From positions 62,001 through 121,204 of the IMG/VR virus record IMGVR_UViG_3300042987_002221: a DNA stretch of 59,204 bases; one strand, written 5' to 3'. Source of the DNA: an uncultured virus (IMG/VR IMGVR_UViG_3300042987_002221) (taxonomy: Duplodnaviria; Heunggongvirae; Uroviricota; Caudoviricetes). Below are positions 12,832 to 46,126 of this stretch, piece after piece (the stretch's first letter is position 1; every line of letters starts with the position of its first letter). Below the pieces are notes generated by a model that saw only the letters and a program-made list of their open reading frames with translations, searched no databases and was not told where the DNA came from. The position numbers and the translations under genes were made by a program.

Positions 12832-12834
12832 CCC

Positions 12835-13011
12835 ATGTTGAAAGGTATTCTTTCATTCTTGATTCTGTTCGGACTATTTTTCTTTAGTATCACGGCATTT
12901 CGTCTTACTACTGAAAAAGAAAAATGGCAGTTGACAAAATTGATTGCCTTTAGTACACTATGTGCTTCGCTGACAATGGTAGCTCTAGTGTCTATTGTGC
13001 TAATCTTTTAA
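12835..13011 (+). CDS. 58-aa two-helix membrane protein (not in ORF track)
   Basis: MLKGILSFLILFGLFFFSITAF...LCASLTMVALVSIVLIF; upstream of SPFH gene. Confidence 0.65.
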   Translation: MLKGILSFLILFGLFFFSITAFRLTTEKEKWQLTKLIAFSTLCASLTMVALVSIVLIF

Positions 13012-13043
13012 AAAATTAACTTGTTCCTAAGAAAGGAAATTGT

Positions 13044-13139
13044 ATGAAGTTGTCTGTTATGGATATTGTTGGCCGTGTTGCCTACTTTGCTCTTGGCGTA
13101 GCTGCTGCTACTGCTTTTATCTTCGCTGTTGTTCTCTGA
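13044..13139 (+). CDS. 31-aa single-helix membrane peptide (not in ORF track)
   Basis: SD AAGGA; MKLSVMDIVGRVAYFALGVAAATAFIFAVVL. Confidence 0.6.
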   Translation: MKLSVMDIVGRVAYFALGVAAATAFIFAVVL

Positions 13140-31158: not shown

Positions 31159-31238
31159 TTATATCCTCAAACCGAATTTTTTAGTATTTGGAATAAATAT
31201 GTGTAGAGCAATTGCTCACAACATAAAGGAAAAATAAA

Positions 31239-31628
31239 ATGGCACAATTTACAAGAACACATGGTGACTTTCAACCAGTAATGAACTATGATGCACCAGA
31301 CTATACCGTCGGTGCAGTTAATGCGATCACTTCAGCCGCAACAGTACAACCTCAAGGTCCAAAGCTTGACTTTGCAACAGTTACTTTCACTGGTACTGGT
31401 ACAACTGGCGCTCAAATTCTAGCAACTATCAATGCTATTCAGCAACTTGCTGTTATCTACATGTATGAATTCACAACTGATACCAATGACACATTGGCAG
31501 TTGCATTCTACCCAATCAATGCATGGGGCGATGTTACAGCAACAGGCGCTGGTACACTAGATGCTGCTATTACTGCTGCTGCAGGCGAAGCTGTAAGTAT
31601 TGCTGCTACAGCAACATTCACTGGTTAA
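31239..31628 (+). CDS. Putative virion structural (decoration-like) protein
   Basis: AATAAATA at 31192, strong SD, Ala/Thr-rich, own terminator. Confidence 0.6.
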   Translation: MAQFTRTHGDFQPVMNYDAPDYTVGAVNAITSAATVQPQGPKLDFATVTFTGTGTTGAQILATINAIQQLAVIYMYEFTTDTNDTLAVAFYPINAWGDVTATGAGTLDAAITAAAGEAVSIAATATFTG

Positions 31629-36282: not shown

Positions 36283-36352
36283 GATAAATACTGCATATAT
36301 TCACATAGGGTGAATTTATGCAGTACCCACTGCGTAGCGACTAGAACTCGCA
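36283..36352 (+). promoter_or_regulatory. Late promoter and structured 5' leader
   Basis: GATAAATA followed by three hairpins with an alternative pairing. Confidence 0.6.
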
Positions 36353-36373
36353 TATTTAATAAAGGAAAAACAA

Positions 36374-37615
36374 ATGGGACGTCCTCTTAAAATCGCAAAA
36401 GCACAAGCAGTTGTAACACTTACCGCAACTAATGGTACTACAGAAGTAGTTACAACAAGTGCAAATTTCACAAATTTAGGTATTATTGCTGGCATGACTT
36501 TTATTCCTGCTAGTAACGTAGGAAATTTAGTAGCTGGCACAACATATTGGATTCTTGAAGTTATAAATTCAGGTAATAACAGTACATTTACAGTTTCAGC
36601 AACTGATTTGTCCGCTAATCCAACTTTTACTAAATTTGACTTAGGTACTACTGCTGCACAATCAGTCGCGCTGACAGTAAATGTAGTTGATGCATATTTC
36701 AATAATCCAGTAAGTGGTGATGGATATCCAGCGACAAACACCAGTACTTATTCTGTAGTAGGCGGCAACACCAGTATTTACGGTAAACAAGTATTAGTAA
36801 GCGTTGCAATTGGTAGAACCGGAAATGGAACAATTTACGGAGACACTGGTAACACAAACATATACGGGCAAGATACAGATTTAGCTAACACATTATCTGT
36901 AGGATCAGCAGTTCAAGTCGCTGTAGCAAATGTTAACGGTTCTACTGACTACGTTGATATTGGTTTTGTCAGTTCTGTAACTGGTTATATCACTGTTGCG
37001 GTAGCTAATACAACTGCTACTGGTAATATCATCGGTACTTCAGGAAATGCTGAAACATTATTTGTTGGTGCTCCTGTAACATTTGATGCAAATACAGGTG
37101 GATTGACAACTGGTACTGTATATTTCGTTGATACTATTGCCAACGCAGCAGCATTTACTGTAGCTTCATCACAATATGGACCACAAGTTCAGTTGACAAC
37201 TGGTACTGATGTTTCTAATGCAACTATTGATGTTGCTGTATTAACGGCTAACGCTACTGCAAACTTCACCAATGCAGATTATGCATATGCAAACGATGAA
37301 GCAGGTTATATCGTTCGTCAAAAAGGTAAACAGAAGTATTTGGTAACAGGTACAACAACTGGTTTAACAGCTCCTTGCTTTACTGCAAACGTTGCTAATA
37401 CTGCATTGACTCCTAATACCATGAGCATTATTGCAACATATGCTAATTCTTCAACAACAAGAGTACAAAGTCTCAGTGATCATACTCTTGAAATATTTGG
37501 AACAGGTAACGTATTGCCAAATAGTACTCCAGCGTTTGCAACATTCAATACTGCATATGCTGCTGATACATATGGCGGACAACCTTACCCAATAGTAACA
37601 ATCAACAACGCCTAA
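36374..37615 (+). CDS. Virion structural protein
   Basis: MGRPLK start, T/A/N/V-rich, GYIVRQKG..KYLV; late promoter and strong SD. Confidence 0.7.
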   Translation: MGRPLKIAKAQAVVTLTATNGTTEVVTTSANFTNLGIIAGMTFIPASNVGNLVAGTTYWILEVINSGNNSTFTVSATDLSANPTFTKFDLGTTAAQSVALTVNVVDAYFNNPVSGDGYPATNTSTYSVVGGNTSIYGKQVLVSVAIGRTGNGTIYGDTGNTNIYGQDTDLANTLSVGSAVQVAVANVNGSTDYVDIGFVSSVTGYITVAVANTTATGNIIGTSGNAETLFVGAPVTFDANTGGLTTGTVYFVDTIANAAAFTVASSQYGPQVQLTTGTDVSNATIDVAVLTANATANFTNADYAYANDEAGYIVRQKGKQKYLVTGTTTGLTAPCFTANVANTALTPNTMSIIATYANSSTTRVQSLSDHTLEIFGTGNVLPNSTPAFATFNTAYAADTYGGQPYPIVTINNA

Positions 37616-42199: not shown

Positions 42200-42228
42200 T
42201 TGACAATAAATACCAGGTGTTATACAAT
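42200..42228 (+). promoter_or_regulatory. Early sigma70-type promoter
   Basis: TTGACAATAAAT...TACAAT with 17-nt spacer, same 5' end as early cassettes. Confidence 0.8.
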
Positions 42229-42258: not shown

Positions 42259-43446
42259 ATGCCTCGTAAAGCAGCAAAACAAGTCGATACCTCAGTTGTC
42301 AAGGCTCTTGATCCCAGAGATCCTGATACCAAGTACATGGGTGAAGAACCACTGTTTACTGTTCAGCCTAACGAAGCCACGCGAAAGATTAGCCTGGTCA
42401 AAGGCTTCAATTGGTATGGAAGGTTCTACGGGCGTAAAGACGCTAAAGAACTGATTTGCCAATATCTTGACCTTACTGACAAAATTGACAAGGCAAAGTT
42501 GTTTCGCAAGGTTGATGAACGTGATATTACTATCACTACAGCGTGGCTTGCTCGCATGAGCCTGCGCGGTCTGGTTCTGTCAAAAGAAGAATCGGACATG
42601 ATTGAAAAAGAAATTGATGCATTGATCACACCCGTCAAGAAAGAAGCAAAAGTTTCTAAGACGGGGGGCACAAAGCCCGAAGTCAAAGAAGCTCCCAAGC
42701 ATAACGTGCAAGAAGTTATGCGTGAACGTGCCCGTGAGGCTGCTGGAGAACTTGAAGGTGTTCTGGACGACTATATTCTTTCTGGTGCAAAGGCAACGCA
42801 TACTCTGCGCCCGATTGACACCGTAGCAAAATTTAATGTTCTTCCTCAACACATTTCCATTATCAGTGATGTTTGGAAGAAAAAGCAAACTGAGTTTGAA
42901 GAAGTTCTGAAGGGAACCGATGCACAATTGGTTCAGGGTTATAATCATTTTACTCGTACCCAACTCAAAAACATTTCCAAGTTTATTGATCAAGTTTTGG
43001 GTGATTTGAATAGCTACATTAGCGTCAAGAAGGCATCAAAGGCACCGCGTAAGCGTAAGGCAGTTCCTATCGAGAAGCAGGTTGCTAAGATGAAGTTTTT
43101 GAAGGAATTCAAGGACACTGCAACAAAACTGGATTTGGTAAGTTTGCACCCTGTCAAACTTCATGGAGCCAGTGAATGCTATCTCTACGATACAGCCAAG
43201 CGTAAATTGATTTACATGGTTGCCGATGAGTACAGCAAGACCTTCTCAGTGAAGGGCACTACGTTGCTTGGGTTCGACAATATCAAGAGTCAGACCAAAA
43301 CACTGCGTAAGCCGGCTGAACAGATTGCACAAATTCTGAAGTTGGGTAAGCCTGCAGGACGTAAGTACTTCAGTGATATTCGTGCTGTAGCAACTACACC
43401 GAATGGACGTACTAACGAAAACATGATTATCCTTAAAGCTTGGTAA
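42259..43446 (+). CDS. Conserved basic early protein of T4-like phages, function unknown
   Basis: Early-type codon usage; C-terminal VKGTTL.GFD...S..KTLRKP...NGR.NE..IILK. Confidence 0.75.
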   Translation: MPRKAAKQVDTSVVKALDPRDPDTKYMGEEPLFTVQPNEATRKISLVKGFNWYGRFYGRKDAKELICQYLDLTDKIDKAKLFRKVDERDITITTAWLARMSLRGLVLSKEESDMIEKEIDALITPVKKEAKVSKTGGTKPEVKEAPKHNVQEVMRERAREAAGELEGVLDDYILSGAKATHTLRPIDTVAKFNVLPQHISIISDVWKKKQTEFEEVLKGTDAQLVQGYNHFTRTQLKNISKFIDQVLGDLNSYISVKKASKAPRKRKAVPIEKQVAKMKFLKEFKDTATKLDLVSLHPVKLHGASECYLYDTAKRKLIYMVADEYSKTFSVKGTTLLGFDNIKSQTKTLRKPAEQIAQILKLGKPAGRKYFSDIRAVATTPNGRTNENMIILKAW

Positions 43447-43452
43447 TCAACG

Positions 43453-43484
43453 ACCTCTACAGTAAAATGTAGAGGTTATTTTTT
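43453..43484 (+). terminator. Intrinsic terminator
   Basis: ACCTCTACA-gtaaaa-TGTAGAGGT then T-run. Confidence 0.75.
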
Positions 43485-43495
43485 GTGGAGAAATT

Positions 43496-43903
43496 ATGCA
43501 AATTGACTTAAATAAATATCAGCACTTCGTAGAAGCTGTTACCAGTAAGCCTAGCAAGGATGTTGCCGTACTGATTCAGCGTCTACACGATCTATCTCAG
43601 GAGCCCGATCTTAATATCAGTCTATTGATGACCGCTAGCATTGGTCTAGCAAGTGAGGGTGGAGAGTTCAGTGAGATTGTAAAGAAGATGGTTTTTCAGG
43701 GTAAACCCTTTAATGAAGAAAATCGTTTTCATATGAAGCGTGAATTAGGCGACATTATTTGGTATTGGGTCAATGCTTGTAGGGCACTCGGATATGACCC
43801 TAATGATGTTGTTGCAGAAAATGTGAAGAAGTTGGAATCAAGGTATCCGGGAGGACACTTTGATCCTTACTATTCAGAGAATCGTAAAGAAAACGACCTT
43901 TGA
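43496..43903 (+). CDS. mazG: MazG-like nucleotide pyrophosphohydrolase
   Basis: GLASEGGEF.E.VKK..FQG, ELGDI.WY, N..KL..RYP. Confidence 0.88.
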   Translation: MQIDLNKYQHFVEAVTSKPSKDVAVLIQRLHDLSQEPDLNISLLMTASIGLASEGGEFSEIVKKMVFQGKPFNEENRFHMKRELGDIIWYWVNACRALGYDPNDVVAENVKKLESRYPGGHFDPYYSENRKENDL

Positions 43904-43919
43904 ATAAGTAAAATCTTCT

Positions 43920-44300
43920 TCAGTATGTAGGTGACCCACAGCCTGTAAATGTGGCTATAATCCGTCCTCAATTGTGGTGTGACGGTAGATGATGAATACT
44001 GACATCAATTTACAGGACTACCCTACGGGATGCCATAAATGTCTGTCCAATGCACAGAAACATTTCCTGTATCTTAATGGTTGATGCTGCCGGATCATAG
44101 TAATAGCGATAGAGGGTCCGGACTGTTCAAGACTATCCGATGAATAATGTCTTGATATAACAGTGAATATGACAGTTTCCTAGAAATAGGTTGATGAGAC
44201 ATAGGCAATCCTCCATTTTAATAACTGAATTCATCGTCGTAAACGTACCTCAAGAATATTTTTTTAGGTTGAGTAGGTCTATCTACTCGCCTTGACCTAA
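43920..44300 (+). ncRNA. Putative large structured non-coding RNA of unknown class
   Basis: No ORF; about 12 nested helices, cUACGg and GAAA tetraloops, 9-bp alternative pairing; strand inferred from tetraloops. Confidence 0.65.
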
Positions 44301-44369
44301 GAATAACAAATAAGAAATACCGATAATACCGATATCATTTGAATAAATACATGATATAGGTGAAAACAC

Positions 44370-45167
44370 ATGACAATAAGTTCTATTGCTAGTCCGTTAA
44401 ATACTCCATCTGGTCTTACCATCGATGAATTAAAACAAGCATTGTTCAATAACATAAGTTATAGATTAGGTCAGGATATAATTGATCTTGAACTAGATCC
44501 ACAACATTATGAAGCAGCATTAAATTATGCCATAAAGATTTATCGTCAAAGAGCGCAAAATGCCACAGTTGAAACATATACTTTGATGACGGTAATTAAG
44601 AACGTTGATACTTATACCCTACCGGAAGAATTTATTAATGTAAGATCCTTGTTTAGAAGAACAGTGGGTTTAGAAACTGGCCCAAGTTCAACTAGTTTTG
44701 ACCCGTTTAGTAGTGCAATATTGAACACCTATTTGTTAAACTACAACTATACAGGTGGTATGGCAACTTATGATTTTTATGCTGGATACGTTGAATTGGC
44801 TGCACGTATGTTTGGTGGTTATGTAAACTACACGTTTAATCCAGTTACCAAAGTATTAAGAGTTGTACGAGATTTCAAAGGTACTGGTGAGCGAATTTTG
44901 ATTTGGGCTGATATTCAACGTCCAGTAATAGAGTTGTTGCAAGATCCTTATGCAGGTGTTTGGATAGGTGATTATACTTTTGCTGTATTAAAAGGAATCA
45001 TAGGTGAAGCCCGTGAAAAGTTTGGGTCTATCGCTGGTCCTGGTGGCGGAACAACCTTAAATGGTGCTGCTATGAAATCTGAAAGCAAAGCGGATCAAGA
45101 ACGTTTAATTGATGAATTGAAACGTTATGTTGATGGGTCACAACCACTTGCATGGATTCAAGGTTAA
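44370..45167 (+). CDS. gp13: Neck protein, T4 gp13-like
   Basis: YRLG...I..EL, GEAREKF..I.GP.GG.TLNG; late promoter at 44342. Confidence 0.85.
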   Translation: MTISSIASPLNTPSGLTIDELKQALFNNISYRLGQDIIDLELDPQHYEAALNYAIKIYRQRAQNATVETYTLMTVIKNVDTYTLPEEFINVRSLFRRTVGLETGPSSTSFDPFSSAILNTYLLNYNYTGGMATYDFYAGYVELAARMFGGYVNYTFNPVTKVLRVVRDFKGTGERILIWADIQRPVIELLQDPYAGVWIGDYTFAVLKGIIGEAREKFGSIAGPGGGTTLNGAAMKSESKADQERLIDELKRYVDGSQPLAWIQG

Positions 45168-45181
45168 TATAAGAGGTTTAA

Positions 45182-45793
45182 TTGATAATAGGTTTATCTG
45201 GAAGAATAGGTTCCGGCAAAGATACTGTTGCTGATTATTTGGTAAAACAACATGACTTTAAAAGATACAGTTATGCAGGAGTAGTCAAAGATTGTCTGTC
45301 ACTAATATTTGGTTGGGATCGTGAATTACTTAATGGCTATACTGTAGAGAGTAGAAATTTTAGAGAACAACCTGATGTTTGGTGGTCTAAAAGATTATGT
45401 ATAGAAAATTTTTCTCCTAGATTTGCAATGCAACATATCGCAACTGATGTGTTGAGAAAACACTTTCGTGATGAGATTTGGGTTGCAAGTTTAGAATACA
45501 AACTCAAGAACGAAACACAAAACTGTGTTGTTACTGATTGTAGATTTCCAAATGAGTTTTATAGTTTAAAAAATCTAGATGGGATCACAGTTAGAATTGA
45601 ACGTGGTGTAGAACCAAATTGGTATCAATATGCAAAAGATTTGACTAATCAAGATAACTTACAAAAGTTGTCTGAGCTAAATATCCATACCAGTGAATTT
45701 AGTAGTGTTTATTTACCTTATGATTATGTCATCAATAATGATGGCACGATTACTGACCTTTATTCTAAGATAGAATCATTGGTCAACTACTAA
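45182..45793 (+). CDS. gp1: Deoxynucleoside monophosphate kinase, T4 gp1-like
   Basis: IIGLSG..GSGKDT, PR..MQ, DCRFPNE, H.SE, I.NDG. Confidence 0.9.
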   Translation: MIIGLSGRIGSGKDTVADYLVKQHDFKRYSYAGVVKDCLSLIFGWDRELLNGYTVESRNFREQPDVWWSKRLCIENFSPRFAMQHIATDVLRKHFRDEIWVASLEYKLKNETQNCVVTDCRFPNEFYSLKNLDGITVRIERGVEPNWYQYAKDLTNQDNLQKLSELNIHTSEFSSVYLPYDYVINNDGTITDLYSKIESLVNY

Positions 45794-46126
45794 GTCTCCT
45801 CGTTTCCAATTTACTTCTTTTCGTTTTATAACTTCAATGCAGTTCAAACATACTGATCTAAGATTAGTGTGGTTGATGTTTTCTAAATTACCATCAACAT
45901 GAAAGACTGTAATCTGTGATGTAAATAATGAATTAAACCCACATAGATCACATTTTGATTTTTTCTTGTACCCACTTTTTGTCCAAGTGGGTTTTCTTGC
46001 CTTTAATTTTTTTGAAATTCTACCGCAACCATCACAAGTTTTTCTGTAATATGTTTTATCATTTTTATGATAATTTACAGCACAGTGATTTTTATTACAG
46101 ATTGTGCAAATAGGCCTAAGATTCAT
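45776..46126 (-). CDS. HNH-like zinc-binding protein
   Basis: Four CxxC pairs, H.DGN..N...NL..VCLNC. Confidence 0.7.
   Translation of the reverse strand: MNLRPICTICNKNHCAVNYHKNDKTYYRKTCDGCGRISKKLKARKPTWTKSGYKKKSKCDLCGFNSLFTSQITVFHVDGNLENINHTNLRSVCLNCIEVIKRKEVNWKRGDLVVDQ

What the first reader, a model, noticed from the sequence alone, without database searches (positions are those of the whole stretch)
43920..44300. About 380-nt densely structured intergenic RNA between mazG and the neck gene
Seen: the longest ORF-free gap in a tightly packed window, more GC-rich than its flanks, with nested helices: TCAGTAT/ATACTGA (43920/43996) enclosing CCACA/TGTGG and CCGTC/GACGG; CATCAA/TTGATG (44003/44081) enclosing TACAGGA/TCCTGTA, a cUACGg loop and AAATGT/ACATTT; CCGGATC/GGTCCGG (44090/44115); ACTGT/ACAGT with TCAAGAC/GTCTTGA; CAGTT/AACTG enclosing CCTA-GAAA-TAGG; TTAGGT/ACCTAA with GAGTAG/CTACTC. 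Loop-region CCTGTAAAT (43942) is also complementary to ATTTACAGG (44008), giving a pseudoknot or switch. I do not recognise tRNA, tmRNA, RNase P or intron signatures. Inference: a possibly undescribed large phage ncRNA.
Basis: partly seen in the sequence, partly recalled or inferred. Interest (0 to 1): 0.8.

Follow-up and report, generated by a model that had tools for sequence, protein, structure and literature searches.

The report
New large pseudoknotted jumbo-phage RNA
The gap between the mazG and neck genes encodes a roughly 390-base RNA with a conserved, knotted fold that recurs in many uncultured freshwater giant phages and matches no described RNA family, so it looks like a new class of large structured RNA whose job is still unknown.

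Summary
The finding holds. Window 43918-44306 (+) is a conserved, non-coding structured RNA.

**How common it is.** Homologues lie in 81 viral contigs and 52 metagenome contigs. None was found in 185,579 prokaryote genomes or 50,697 phage records.

**Evidence for the fold.** On 56 sequences under 97% alike, an 82-pair model is 93.3% paired against 78.4% in shuffles. 67 of 82 pairs change on both sides. The covariation score is 0.434, against 0.169 shuffled (0 of 500 as high) and 0.058-0.090 with partners slid. The model has four pseudoknot-type pairings and one lone tertiary pair.

Single-sequence folding is no better than shuffles (z -0.71).

**Comparison with known families.** No Rfam 15 family matches, and five literature searches found no description.

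**Host and context.** The host is a giant phage: a 121-kb record rated 35% complete, whose neck protein is 38-40% identical to those of Atu_ph07 and PA5oct. The RNA usually sits just upstream of the neck gene and its late-promoter-like motif. It looks ancestral with several losses.

**Function.** Unknown. My best guess is a stable, trans-acting folded RNA. A leader for the neck gene and a ribozyme are the main rivals.

The parts
43918..44306 (+). Whole conserved RNA element, about 389 nt here and 381-504 nt in relatives
   Evidence: Sharp onset and end of conservation in alignments A2 and A3. nhmmer profile hits span model positions 2-388.
43920..44002 (+). PK1: 5' end 43920-43925 pairs with 43997-44002, which is the loop of hairpin H5
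   Evidence: 6 of 6 pairs change on both sides; 88.1% of cells paired (helix 1).
43929..43954 (+). H-type pseudoknot. S1 is 43929-43932 with 43941-43944; S2 is 43936-43940 with 43950-43954
   Evidence: S1: 3 of 4 pairs change on both sides. S2: 5 of 5. Paired cells 86.2% and 78.7% (helices 2 and 3).
43962..43985 (+). H4: 43962-43967 with 43979-43985, plus 43969 with 43976
   Evidence: 5 of 7 pairs change on both sides; 97.9% paired (helix 4).
43990..44007 (+). H5: 43990-43994 with 44003-44007. Its loop supplies the 3' strand of PK1
   Evidence: In A2: pair 85/98 GC 22 and AU 11; pair 86/97 UA 20 and CG 13; pair 87/96 GC 32 and AU 1. Left out of the A3 count because MAFFT put the 5' strand out of register.
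44011..44071 (+). H6 (44011-17 with 44065-71) enclosing H7 (44038-41 with 44061-64) and H8 (44043-46 with 44054-57)
   Evidence: H6: 7 of 7 pairs change on both sides, 100% paired. H7: 100% and 96.4% paired (the tool splits it into two helices). H8: 3 of 4 pairs, 72.5% paired (helices 5-8).
44087..44205 (+). Lone long-range pair: 44087 with 44205, the variable base of the conserved H14 loop
   Evidence: UA 36, AU 8, CG 3, other 9 of 56 (helix 9). Found by mutual information.
44090..44121 (+). H9 (44090-96 with 44115-21) with a conserved 18-nt loop, 44097-44114
   Evidence: 6 of 7 pairs change on both sides; 100% paired (helix 10). The loop is nearly invariant.
44105..44292 (+). PK4: H9 loop 44105-44108 pairs with 44288-44290 and 44292, beside hairpin H15
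   Evidence: Pair 305/555 AU 28 and UA 26; 307/551 CG 50 and UA 6; 308/550 GC 55 and AU 1; 99.6% paired (helix 11). The same 3' strand can also pair locally with the 5' flank of H15, so the two pairings may alternate.
44122..44164 (+). H10 (44122-25 with 44161-64) enclosing H11 (44127-33 with 44149-55)
   Evidence: H10: 2 of 4 pairs change on both sides, 100% paired. H11: 7 of 7, about 89% paired (helices 12-14).
44138..44236 (+). PK3: H11 loop 44138-44145 pairs with 44229-44236
   Evidence: 6 of 8 pairs change on both sides; 97.1% paired. The end pair is UA 29, CG 24, UG 3 (helix 15).
44173..44227 (+). H12 (44173-77 with 44223-27) enclosing H13 (44179-82 with 44187-90, GAAA loop here) and H14 (44193-96 and 44198-99 with 44212-17). 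H14 carries a conserved 12-nt loop, 44200-44211
   Evidence: H12: 5 of 5 pairs change on both sides. H13: 3 of 3. H14: 3 of 6, 100% paired (helices 16-18).
44248..44257 (+). R1: single-stranded motif CCTCAAGAAT
   Evidence: Changes in step with R2 across subfamilies, keeping the same letters rather than complementary ones (columns 481/566 AA 43, GG 7).
44271..44288 (+). H15 hairpin: 44271-76 with 44283-88. The 3' strand is nearly invariant
   Evidence: Present in the minimum-energy fold of 50 of 51 distinct 3' domains. One compensated change is seen in L174 and L159.
44296..44304 (+). R2: second copy of the motif, CCTAAGAAT
   Evidence: As for R1. It pairs back to the U-rich tract after R1 in only 5 of 51 minimum-energy folds, this window's clade among them. 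No complement was found within +/-5 kb in 76 loci.
44342..44349 (+). AATAAATA motif between the RNA and the neck start codon. It resembles the T4-type late promoter (consensus recalled, not tested)
   Evidence: ATAAATA is invariant in A1. It is present in both RNA-bearing and RNA-free relatives.
43496..43903 (+). Upstream gene: MazG-like pyrophosphatase
   Evidence: PF03819 E 8e-10; phrog_229 E 5.4e-48.
44370..45167 (+). Downstream gene: neck / head-tail adaptor Ad2
   Evidence: phrog_211 E 1.8e-24. It is the first ORF downstream of the RNA in 65 of 78 loci that have downstream sequence.

Best explanation
Window 43918-44306 (+) encodes a member of a previously undescribed family of large RNAs, about 380-500 nt long with several pseudoknots. 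The family is carried by uncultured freshwater jumbo myophages whose nearest isolates by neck protein are PA5oct and Atu_ph07.

**Shown**
- It is non-coding and works as a folded single strand of the + sense.
- Fifteen helices in the window, four pseudoknot-type long-range pairings (PK1, the S1/S2 knot, PK3, PK4) and one lone tertiary pair are kept by compensatory change. Only the pairings alignable in A3 entered the 82-pair count, which the tool reports as 18 helices.
- Several loops and junctions are nearly invariant: the 18-nt H9 loop, the 12-nt H14 loop, and two identical single-stranded motifs R1 and R2 that flank a conserved hairpin.
- Many relatives add small peripheral hairpins with GNRA-type loops.

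**Inferred**
- The RNA has no conserved promoter or terminator of its own. It begins right after whichever gene lies upstream. In this window nothing terminator-like separates it from mazG. It is therefore most likely made as part of a read-through transcript of the upstream unit, and it ends just before the late-promoter-like motif of the neck gene.
- Most likely mechanism, about 0.45: it is a stable, trans-acting RNA. A rigid, knotted scaffold displays the invariant loops and the two identical tails to a partner. That partner could be a dimeric or repeated protein site, a repeated RNA target, or further copies of the RNA itself, in the manner of other large ornate bacterial and phage RNAs.

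The confidence given below is for the core claim, a real and new structured-RNA family acting as RNA. It is not for the trans-acting mechanism.
For: **Conserved fold**
- Covariation on 56 sequences: 93.3% of 4558 cells paired against 78.4% in shuffles. 67 of 82 pairs change on both sides. The score is 0.434, against 0.169 in shuffles (0 of 500 as high) and 0.058-0.090 with partners slid 1-3 columns.
- An independent RNAalifold run on 34 sequences gave 66 pairs, 30 of them with compensatory change.
- Mutual information recovered the helices and found PK4 and the lone pair without prior input.

**Strand and coding**
- Strand: 165 G-U/U-G cells against 58 A-C/C-A cells in the model.
- Not coding: the substitution pattern preserves pairs, and the start codon of the only 31-aa ORF (43989-44084) is not conserved.

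**Distribution**
- 81 viral contigs and 52 metagenome contigs hold it.
- 0 hits in genome contigs and none in isolate phage records for three members.
- One copy in the 121-kb record that holds the window.

**Not a known family**
- Rfam searches found nothing. ARAGORN found nothing.

**Inheritance**
- On a neck-protein tree of 88 distinct proteins (38 with the RNA, 50 without), at least 5 changes of state are needed (at least 2 forced by well-supported branches). Shuffled labels need 28.7, and 0 of 500 shuffles are as low. The basal clades carry the RNA.

**Context**
- The upstream gene varies (mazG, small ORFs, homing endonucleases). The neck gene is the first downstream ORF in 65 of 78 loci.
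- No terminator-like site lies between mazG and the RNA, or after the RNA.

**Weak hint of transcription**
- In two RNA libraries from different studies, the only contigs on a 1.8-kb stretch lie inside the element. X16 covers 43928-44153 with no differences; X20 covers 44058-44198. None lies on mazG.
Against: - The minimum-free-energy fold is no more stable than shuffles: z -0.71 on +, -1.33 on -.
- The RNA-library contigs cannot show strand, ends or true transcription, and DNA carry-over is possible. Two other RNA libraries covered only the neck gene.
- No conserved promoter or terminator was found, so a separate stable transcript is inferred, not shown.
- In many relatives a terminator-like hairpin sits directly upstream of the element. 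That would reduce read-through.
- The element has been lost in several lineages whose neck proteins are 80-88% identical to this one, so it is dispensable there.
- Its near-constant position in front of the neck gene fits a cis role as well as a trans role.
- No partner was identified. The two downstream neighbours tested occur equally with and without the RNA, and no complement of R2 lies within +/-5 kb.
- H5, H15 and S2 are less well supported in A3 because of alignment register.
Confidence: 0.9

Rival explanations
1. It is a cis-acting leader or insulator at the boundary between the early/middle and late units. The RNA would be part of read-through transcripts that run into the neck gene. 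It would control them, by blocking translation or read-through or by sensing a signal, until the late promoter downstream of it fires.
For: - It lies immediately upstream of the neck gene in 65 of 78 loci, whatever lies upstream.
- It is on the same strand as both neighbours and has no promoter or terminator of its own.
- RNA-free relatives have a 28-55 nt gap (51 of 72 loci). In that gap the late-promoter-like motif sits inside an inverted repeat whose 3' arm covers the ribosome-binding site. So early read-through transcripts of this gene appear to be regulated by RNA structure anyway.
- One 3' strand has two alternative partners, PK4 and the local H15 flank. That would suit a switch.
Against: - The late-promoter-like motif lies between the RNA and the gene, so late transcripts would lack the RNA.
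- A 390-nt fold with five long-range contacts is far more than the small hairpin that does this job in relatives.
- In the more divergent subfamilies the downstream genes are different and unrelated to the neck protein. Among the ORFs of these loci, hmmsearch with a neck-protein profile finds only the neck-protein cluster c0.
- No covariation links the RNA to the neck leader.
Confidence: 0.25
2. It is a new ribozyme. It could cleave itself or process the polycistronic transcript, or it could catalyse some other reaction.
For: - The size, the multiple pseudoknots, the GNRA-capped peripheral hairpins and the invariant unpaired nucleotides in junctions and loops are the features typical of large ribozymes.
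- Two identical single-stranded motifs could be two substrate sites for one active site.
Against: - No match to any ribozyme family in Rfam.
- No internal guide sequence complementary to R1/R2 was found.
- There is no biochemical evidence of any kind.
Confidence: 0.15
3. It is a selfish mobile insert, intron-like or carried along by homing endonucleases, in an insertion hot spot.
For: - It is present or absent among close relatives.
- The mazG-neck interval also holds homing-endonuclease genes (phrog_314, phrog_3339) and various small ORFs in other relatives.
Against: - Its presence is strongly clustered on the neck-protein tree: 5 changes against 28.7 in shuffles, with basal clades carrying it. 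That points to vertical descent with losses.
- There is a single copy per record.
- Both flanking ORFs are intact, and empty sites show no target duplication or exon continuity.
- No match to group I or group II intron models.
Confidence: 0.05
4. It is not a functional RNA. It would be chance complementarity, a decayed gene, or a DNA-level signal such as an operator, an origin or a packaging site.
For: - Thermodynamic stability is no better than shuffles.
- Hairpin H15 is a near-perfect palindrome that could also be a DNA site.
Against: - 67 of 82 pairs have compensatory changes, with 0 of 500 shuffles as high and slid controls five-fold lower.
- G-U exceeds A-C by 165 to 58, which points to a single strand of + sense.
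- Conservation extends over 130 or more contigs.
- No conserved reading frame exists.
Confidence: 0.03

Closest known systems
ROOL and GOLLD RNAs (large ornate bacterial and phage-associated RNAs; Rfam families)
   Same: - Both are several hundred nucleotides long, with many helices, several pseudoknots and conserved loops.
- Both are found in phage or prophage DNA and have no known function.
- In ROOL and GOLLD, some covarying 'tertiary' pairings proved to be bridges between copies in RNA-only cages (bioRxiv 10.1101/2024.12.08.627333: abstract and passages read; ROOL described in PMC5737381: passages read).
   Different: - No sequence or model similarity: Rfam 15 found nothing.
- This RNA is smaller, about 390 nt against the 581-nt ROOL average.
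- It is not next to tRNA genes; ARAGORN finds none in the window. It sits at a fixed place before a neck gene.
- It is restricted to freshwater jumbo-phage contigs.
- Multimer formation is untested here.
phi29 packaging RNA (pRNA)
   Same: Both are phage-encoded structured RNAs. From recall, pRNA binds the head-tail connector and forms rings through loop-loop pairing between copies. Here the gene lies next to a neck/connector-module gene and has loop-mediated long-range pairings.
   Different: - pRNA is much smaller, and no Rfam match to it was found.
- The relatives here are T4-like in gene order and would package DNA with a terminase.
- The resemblance comes from recall and is only a lead. 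Nothing was tested.
Group I self-splicing introns of T4-like phages
   Same: Similar size, a pseudoknotted core, GNRA-capped peripheral hairpins, and a patchy presence among related phages.
   Different: - It interrupts no gene: both neighbours are complete, and empty sites are simple intergenic gaps.
- No match to the Rfam intron models.
- The order of helices does not fit the group I core. This last point is my own inspection against a recalled scheme.
RNA hairpins that hide the ribosome-binding site of T4 late genes in early transcripts (T4 lysozyme-type control, recalled)
   Same: It sits at the same kind of place: just upstream of a late-promoter-like motif and a late structural gene. RNA-free relatives have such a hairpin there.
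   Different: Those are 20-40 nt hairpins. This is a 390-nt knotted RNA that ends upstream of the promoter-like motif.

Membership tests
Any Rfam 15 family (4227 covariance models) | Score at or above the family's gathering threshold | tested here: not met
   - Whole window: the only hit is freshwater-2 at 36299-36376.
- Region at E up to 10: four hits of 10.6-18.8 bits against cut-offs of 42-290.
- 20 diverse members at E up to 1: one chance miRNA hit.
Group I intron | Interrupts a gene, so that flanking exons are rejoined into a continuous functional RNA | tested here: not met
   The mazG and neck ORFs are both complete. Relatives without the element have a plain 28-55 nt intergenic gap.
Group I intron | Conserved catalytic core detectable by the Rfam intron model | tested here: not met
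   No hit at E up to 10 on the region or E up to 1 on 20 members.
tmRNA | tRNA-like domain plus a tag reading frame | tested here: not met
   ARAGORN finds 0 tRNA or tmRNA genes in the window. No Rfam tmRNA hit.
RNase P RNA | Conserved catalytic-domain regions and the P4 helix, detectable by the Rfam RNase P models | tested here: not met
   No hit. A short local likeness I noticed from recall was not pursued.
ROOL / GOLLD | Match to the family model | tested here: not met
   No hit.
ROOL / GOLLD-like ornate RNAs (a kind, not a family) | Forms homo-oligomers without protein | not testable with these tools
   This needs native gels, SEC-MALS or cryo-EM of an in-vitro transcript.
Riboswitch or cis-regulatory leader | Lies in the 5' UTR of the regulated gene, with an expression platform that overlaps a terminator or the ribosome-binding site | tested here: inconclusive
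   - It is upstream of the neck gene in 65 of 78 loci.
- A late-promoter-like motif lies between them.
- No terminator follows the RNA.
- R2 can pair with the ribosome-binding region only through 4-5 bp of invariant letters (my inspection), so covariation cannot test it.
Protein-coding gene or pseudogene | A conserved reading frame | tested here: not met
   The longest stop-free stretch in any of six frames has a median of 59 aa across 56 members. The start of the window's 31-aa ORF is not conserved. Substitutions preserve base pairs.

The most novel reading that the evidence does not exclude
The RNA is a new self-organising or catalytic RNA of giant phages. Under this reading, some of the covarying 'pseudoknots' (PK1, PK3, PK4) and the duplicated tails R1/R2 are contacts between copies, which would build a multimeric RNA assembly as in ROOL and GOLLD. 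Alternatively, the strand with two covarying partners (the H9 loop and the H15 flank) is a genuine two-state switch driving a ribozyme-like or ligand-responsive function during infection.
Probability: 0.2. Interest if true: 0.92.

Novelty: categorically new. Interest (0 to 1): 0.8.

Why it matters
Large RNAs with intricate conserved folds are rare. The known ones (ribosomal RNAs, RNase P, self-splicing introns, and lately OLE, ROOL and GOLLD) have each revealed new biochemistry or new RNA architecture.

This one stands out on four counts:
- It is compact, about 390 nt.
- Its covariation support is unusually rich, with four pseudoknot-type pairings and an isolated tertiary pair.
- It is abundant in public freshwater data, in 130 or more contigs.
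- It is confined to uncultured jumbo phages, a group whose non-coding repertoire is almost unexplored.

It offers a ready target for cryo-EM and for ribozyme or partner screens. It also raises a specific puzzle: two identical single-stranded motifs that change together across the family.

Tried and rejected
**Structure and folding**
- Single-sequence folding as evidence: z -0.71 and -1.33. Not informative, in part because the fold is pseudoknotted.
- Pairing of GGC (43953-55) with GCC near the 3' end, suggested by RNAalifold: invariant, and broken in the two sequences that vary. Dropped.
- Covariance model: not built. The full model of about 390 positions would probably exceed the time limit, and nhmmer recovered the family well. 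H5 and H15 were therefore not counted on a structure-aware alignment.

**The R1/R2 motifs**
- Internal partner: exact 6-mer complements, best duplex sites and mutual information gave no consistent covarying partner. CCUC of R1 can pair with an invariant GAGG at the end of the H9 loop in 39 of 56 sequences, but nothing varies there, so it cannot be tested.
- R2 pairing to the U-rich tract after R1: good in this window's clade and a few others, but the minimum-energy fold in only 5 of 51. Not general.
- Target for R2 within +/-5 kb: none in 76 loci where R2 could be located; 4 further loci had no recognisable R2.

**Homologues and partners**
- BLASTN against isolate phages with three members: no match.
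- Pattern scan of prokaryote genomes: 0 hits.
- Looser single-motif scan: 119 or more stretches, many of them chance matches in coding sequence.
- Co-occurring protein partner: the HNH-like gene is present in 30 of 38 RNA-bearing and 38 of 50 RNA-free loci. dNMP kinase is present in 33 of 38 and 44 of 50. No association.
- Neighbours in divergent subfamilies: no informative Pfam or PHROG names and no relation to the neck protein.

**RNA libraries and earlier work**
- X17 and X19 had contigs only on the neck gene, and nothing was laid on mazG in any run. Contigs cannot show absence.
- Earlier findings of this scan: nothing on record.
Full report
**What is at the locus.** The window is part of a 121,204-nt virus record that CheckV rates 35% complete. 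The interval 43904-44369 lies between two + strand genes. Upstream is a MazG-like gene, 43496-43903 (PF03819, E 8e-10; phrog_229). Downstream is a neck / head-tail adaptor Ad2 gene, 44370-45167 (phrog_211, E 1.8e-24). A dNMP kinase, a small HNH-like gene on the other strand and a 1255-aa tail sheath follow. At 466 nt, this is the longest gap free of ORFs of 60 aa or more in the window; the next are 364 and 297 nt. Its GC content (0.398) is above the window mean (0.37) and the neck gene (0.366), but not above mazG (0.407).

The nearest cultured relatives by neck protein are jumbo phages. Atu_ph07 is 38% identical, the PA5oct group 40%, and XaC1 and the Rak2-like phages 33-37%; all 93 matching records are below 60%. 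PA5oct shows the same gene order (unknown protein, Ad2, dNMP kinase, sheath) without any long gap.

**First tests on the single sequence.**
- Rfam 15 gives no match in the interval at gathering score.
- At E up to 10 it gives only four hits far below their cut-offs.
- ARAGORN finds no tRNA or tmRNA in the window.
- The minimum-free-energy fold is not more stable than dinucleotide shuffles: + strand -105 against -101.6 +/- 4.8 kcal/mol, z -0.71, with 26 of 100 shuffles as good; - strand z -1.33.

**Relatives.** A search with the neck protein confirmed 274 of 275 matched stretches in viral contigs as encoding a relative; the best 80 were kept.
- In 51 of the 72 loci that hold both genes, mazG and the neck gene are 28-55 nt apart. 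21 have longer gaps.
- BLASTN found the element in 9 of the 80 loci, at 71-100% identity.
- The first alignment already showed compensatory changes in most helices.
- Motif scans then found 45 viral contigs with the 3' motif.
- A two-motif pattern found 81 viral contigs, 52 metagenome contigs and none in one genome each of 185,579 prokaryote species.
- Three family members gave no BLASTN match in 50,697 isolate phage records.
- An nhmmer profile recovered 191 full-length copies among the loci held, 67 of them distinct and 56 after merging those over 97% alike.
- Some host contigs are 267-364 kb long, which fits jumbo phages.

**Structure.** RNAalifold on 34 sequences gave 66 pairs, 30 of them with compensatory change. 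I then aligned 56 sequences (A3) and wrote a model from the window's helices plus pairings found by mutual information. I counted it with the pair-count tool.

| Measure | Observed | Shuffled | Partners slid 1-3 columns |
|---|---|---|---|
| Cells paired (of 4558) | 93.3% | 78.4% | 35-44% |
| Pairs changed on both sides (of 82) | 67 | 46.1 | 27-35 |
| Covariation score | 0.434 | 0.169 (0 of 500 as high) | 0.058-0.090 |

The model has 82 pairs in 18 helices as the tool counts them (H7 and H11 are each split in two). Helices H6, H9, H10 and H14 are 100% paired.

The topology is knotted:
- **PK1.** The 5' end (43920-25) pairs with the loop of hairpin H5.
- **S1/S2.** Positions 43929-43954 form an H-type pseudoknot.
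- **PK3.** The loop of H11 (44138-45) pairs with 44229-36. Its terminal pair alternates U-A 29, C-G 24, U-G 3.
- **PK4.** The conserved loop of H9 (44105-08) pairs with 44288-92. The pair 44105/44292 is A-U 28, U-A 26.
- **Lone pair.** 44087 with 44205 (in the H14 loop) is U-A 36, A-U 8, C-G 3.

G-U cells outnumber A-C cells 165 to 58, so the folded strand is the + strand. Many relatives carry an extra hairpin with a GUAA, GCAA or GAAA loop between H6 and H9, and small GNRA-capped hairpins elsewhere. This is the usual sign of tertiary docking.

H5 is supported in the 34-sequence alignment but is out of register in A3. H15 is in the minimum-energy fold of 50 of 51 distinct 3' domains.

CATCAA/TTGATG, the general form of TTAGGT/ACCTAA, and the proposed switch CCTGTAAAT/ATTTACAGG behave like random pairings. 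Together they are 61.6% paired against 61.5% in shuffles, with a score of 0.112 against 0.108 and 146 of 500 shuffles as high. The other eleven pairings are upheld, and the small CCC/GGG hairpin is present only in part of the family.

**Unexplained features.**
- *Two motifs that change together.* R1 (44248-57) and R2 (44296-304) flank hairpin H15 and keep the same letters as each other across subfamilies: AAGAAU, AGUAAU, AGGAAU, AAAAGAU, AGAAGAU, UGCUGAU. They belong to a longer internal repeat. Each follows the 3' strand of a helix and a CGCC-like block.
- *No partner found for them.* I found no consistent partner inside the RNA or within 5 kb. R2 pairs back to the U-rich tract after R1 in only 5 of 51 minimum-energy folds.
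- *One strand with two partners.* The strand beside H15 can pair either with the H9 loop (PK4) or with the 5' flank of H15, and all three segments change together (L140, L222, L174). The pair 44105/44292 favours PK4. The two pairings exclude each other, so there may be a switch, or a contact between copies.

**Context and descent.**
- In 80 loci with up to 5 kb on each side, the neck gene is the first ORF after the RNA in 65 of the 78 that have downstream sequence. It is among the first three ORFs in 69.
- The upstream neighbour varies: mazG, several small ORFs, and homing endonucleases.
- More divergent subfamilies sit among unrelated genes of unknown function.
- A motif that resembles the T4-type late promoter (consensus recalled) lies between the RNA and the neck start codon, at 44342-49 here.
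- In RNA-free relatives this motif sits inside an inverted repeat whose 3' arm covers the ribosome-binding site.
- No conserved promoter precedes the RNA. In this window no terminator-like site separates it from mazG or follows it. In many relatives a terminator-like hairpin lies directly upstream.
- On a neck-protein tree of 88 distinct proteins (38 with the RNA, 50 without; 10 of 131 loci could not be scored), the trait needs at least 5 changes. Shuffled labels need 28.7, and 0 of 500 shuffles are as low. The basal clades carry the RNA. This fits an old element lost several times, not an actively mobile one.
- The record that holds the window has one copy.

**Expression.** Of four RNA libraries laid on 43400-45200, two from different studies have contigs only inside the element. 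X16 covers 43928-44153 with no differences; X20 covers 44058-44198. Two have contigs only on the neck gene. These are assembled contigs. They show neither strand nor ends, and DNA carry-over is possible, so this is a weak hint only.

**Interpretation.** The core claim is a genuine, previously undescribed family of large pseudoknotted RNAs acting as RNA of + sense. I hold it at about 0.9. For the mechanism:

| Reading | Probability |
|---|---|
| Stable trans-acting scaffold RNA displaying invariant loops and two identical tails to a partner | about 0.45 |
| Cis-acting leader or insulator for the neck gene | about 0.25 |
| Ribozyme | about 0.15 |
| Mobile element | about 0.05 |
| Non-functional or DNA-level signal | about 0.03 |

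In the trans-acting reading the RNA would be made by read-through from the upstream unit. ROOL and GOLLD are the closest known kind. There, pairings first seen as tertiary covariation turned out to join copies into RNA-only cages (bioRxiv 10.1101/2024.12.08.627333, abstract and passages read). The same could hold for PK1, PK3, PK4 or R1/R2 here, but nothing tests it.

**Prior description.**
- Keyword searches returned nothing on this element.
- A search for three conserved motifs in DNA and RNA spelling found only chance primer matches.
- Term look-ups in the 224-motif paper (PMC5737381, passages) and in a 2026 preprint on prokaryotic non-coding space (10.64898/2026.10.21.760802, passages) also found nothing.
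- Supplements of these papers were not read and could list candidate motifs that I did not see.

Noticed in passing
window 36299-36376 (+): Match to the Rfam family freshwater-2 RNA (RF02980): 68.8 bits against a gathering score of 49.9, E 2e-08, full length. This is a second structured-RNA candidate in the same phage.
   Followed up: no
L007-L075, the interval between mazG and the neck gene (for example L010:2967-3000 and L020:2096-2129): In RNA-free relatives the late-promoter-like GATAAATA motif sits inside an inverted repeat, such as CCTGAT...ATCAGG. Its 3' arm overlaps the neck gene's ribosome-binding site. Read-through transcripts would hide the site, while transcripts started at the motif would not. 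This is the arrangement recalled for some T4 late genes.
   Followed up: partly
mazG-neck interval in relatives (for example L288:3104-3811 and L303:5557-6666): The interval is an insertion hot spot. Homing-endonuclease genes (phrog_314, phrog_3339) and several small ORFs of unknown function occupy it in different relatives. Gaps of 275-995 nt without the RNA also exist.
   Followed up: partly
L131, L144, L151, L162, L164, L170, L197 (about 110 nt around the matched motif): Seven viral contigs, five of them from one metagenome going by their contig names, share a near-identical stretch of about 110 nt that happens to contain the H14-loop motif. In most it lies at or within about 100 nt of a contig end. 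It is unrelated to the RNA family and may be a terminal repeat or another element.
   Followed up: no
window 31159-31522 and 12832-13128: The second and third longest ORF-free gaps in the window, 364 and 297 nt. Rfam gives no hit at gathering score. They were not examined further.
   Followed up: no
window 42200-42228 and 43452-43477 (+): A strong sigma-70-like promoter match (TTGACA, 17 nt, TACAAT; 11 of 12) lies upstream of the 395-aa gene. A terminator-like hairpin with a T-run lies between that gene and mazG. The totals found do not exceed shuffles, so these are leads only.
   Followed up: no
window 45776-46126 (-): A 116-aa Cys-rich ORF on the opposite strand carries an HNH-like motif (my reading of the translation). 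It has no Pfam or PHROG hit. It is conserved in both RNA-bearing and RNA-free relatives: 30 of 38 and 38 of 50.
   Followed up: partly
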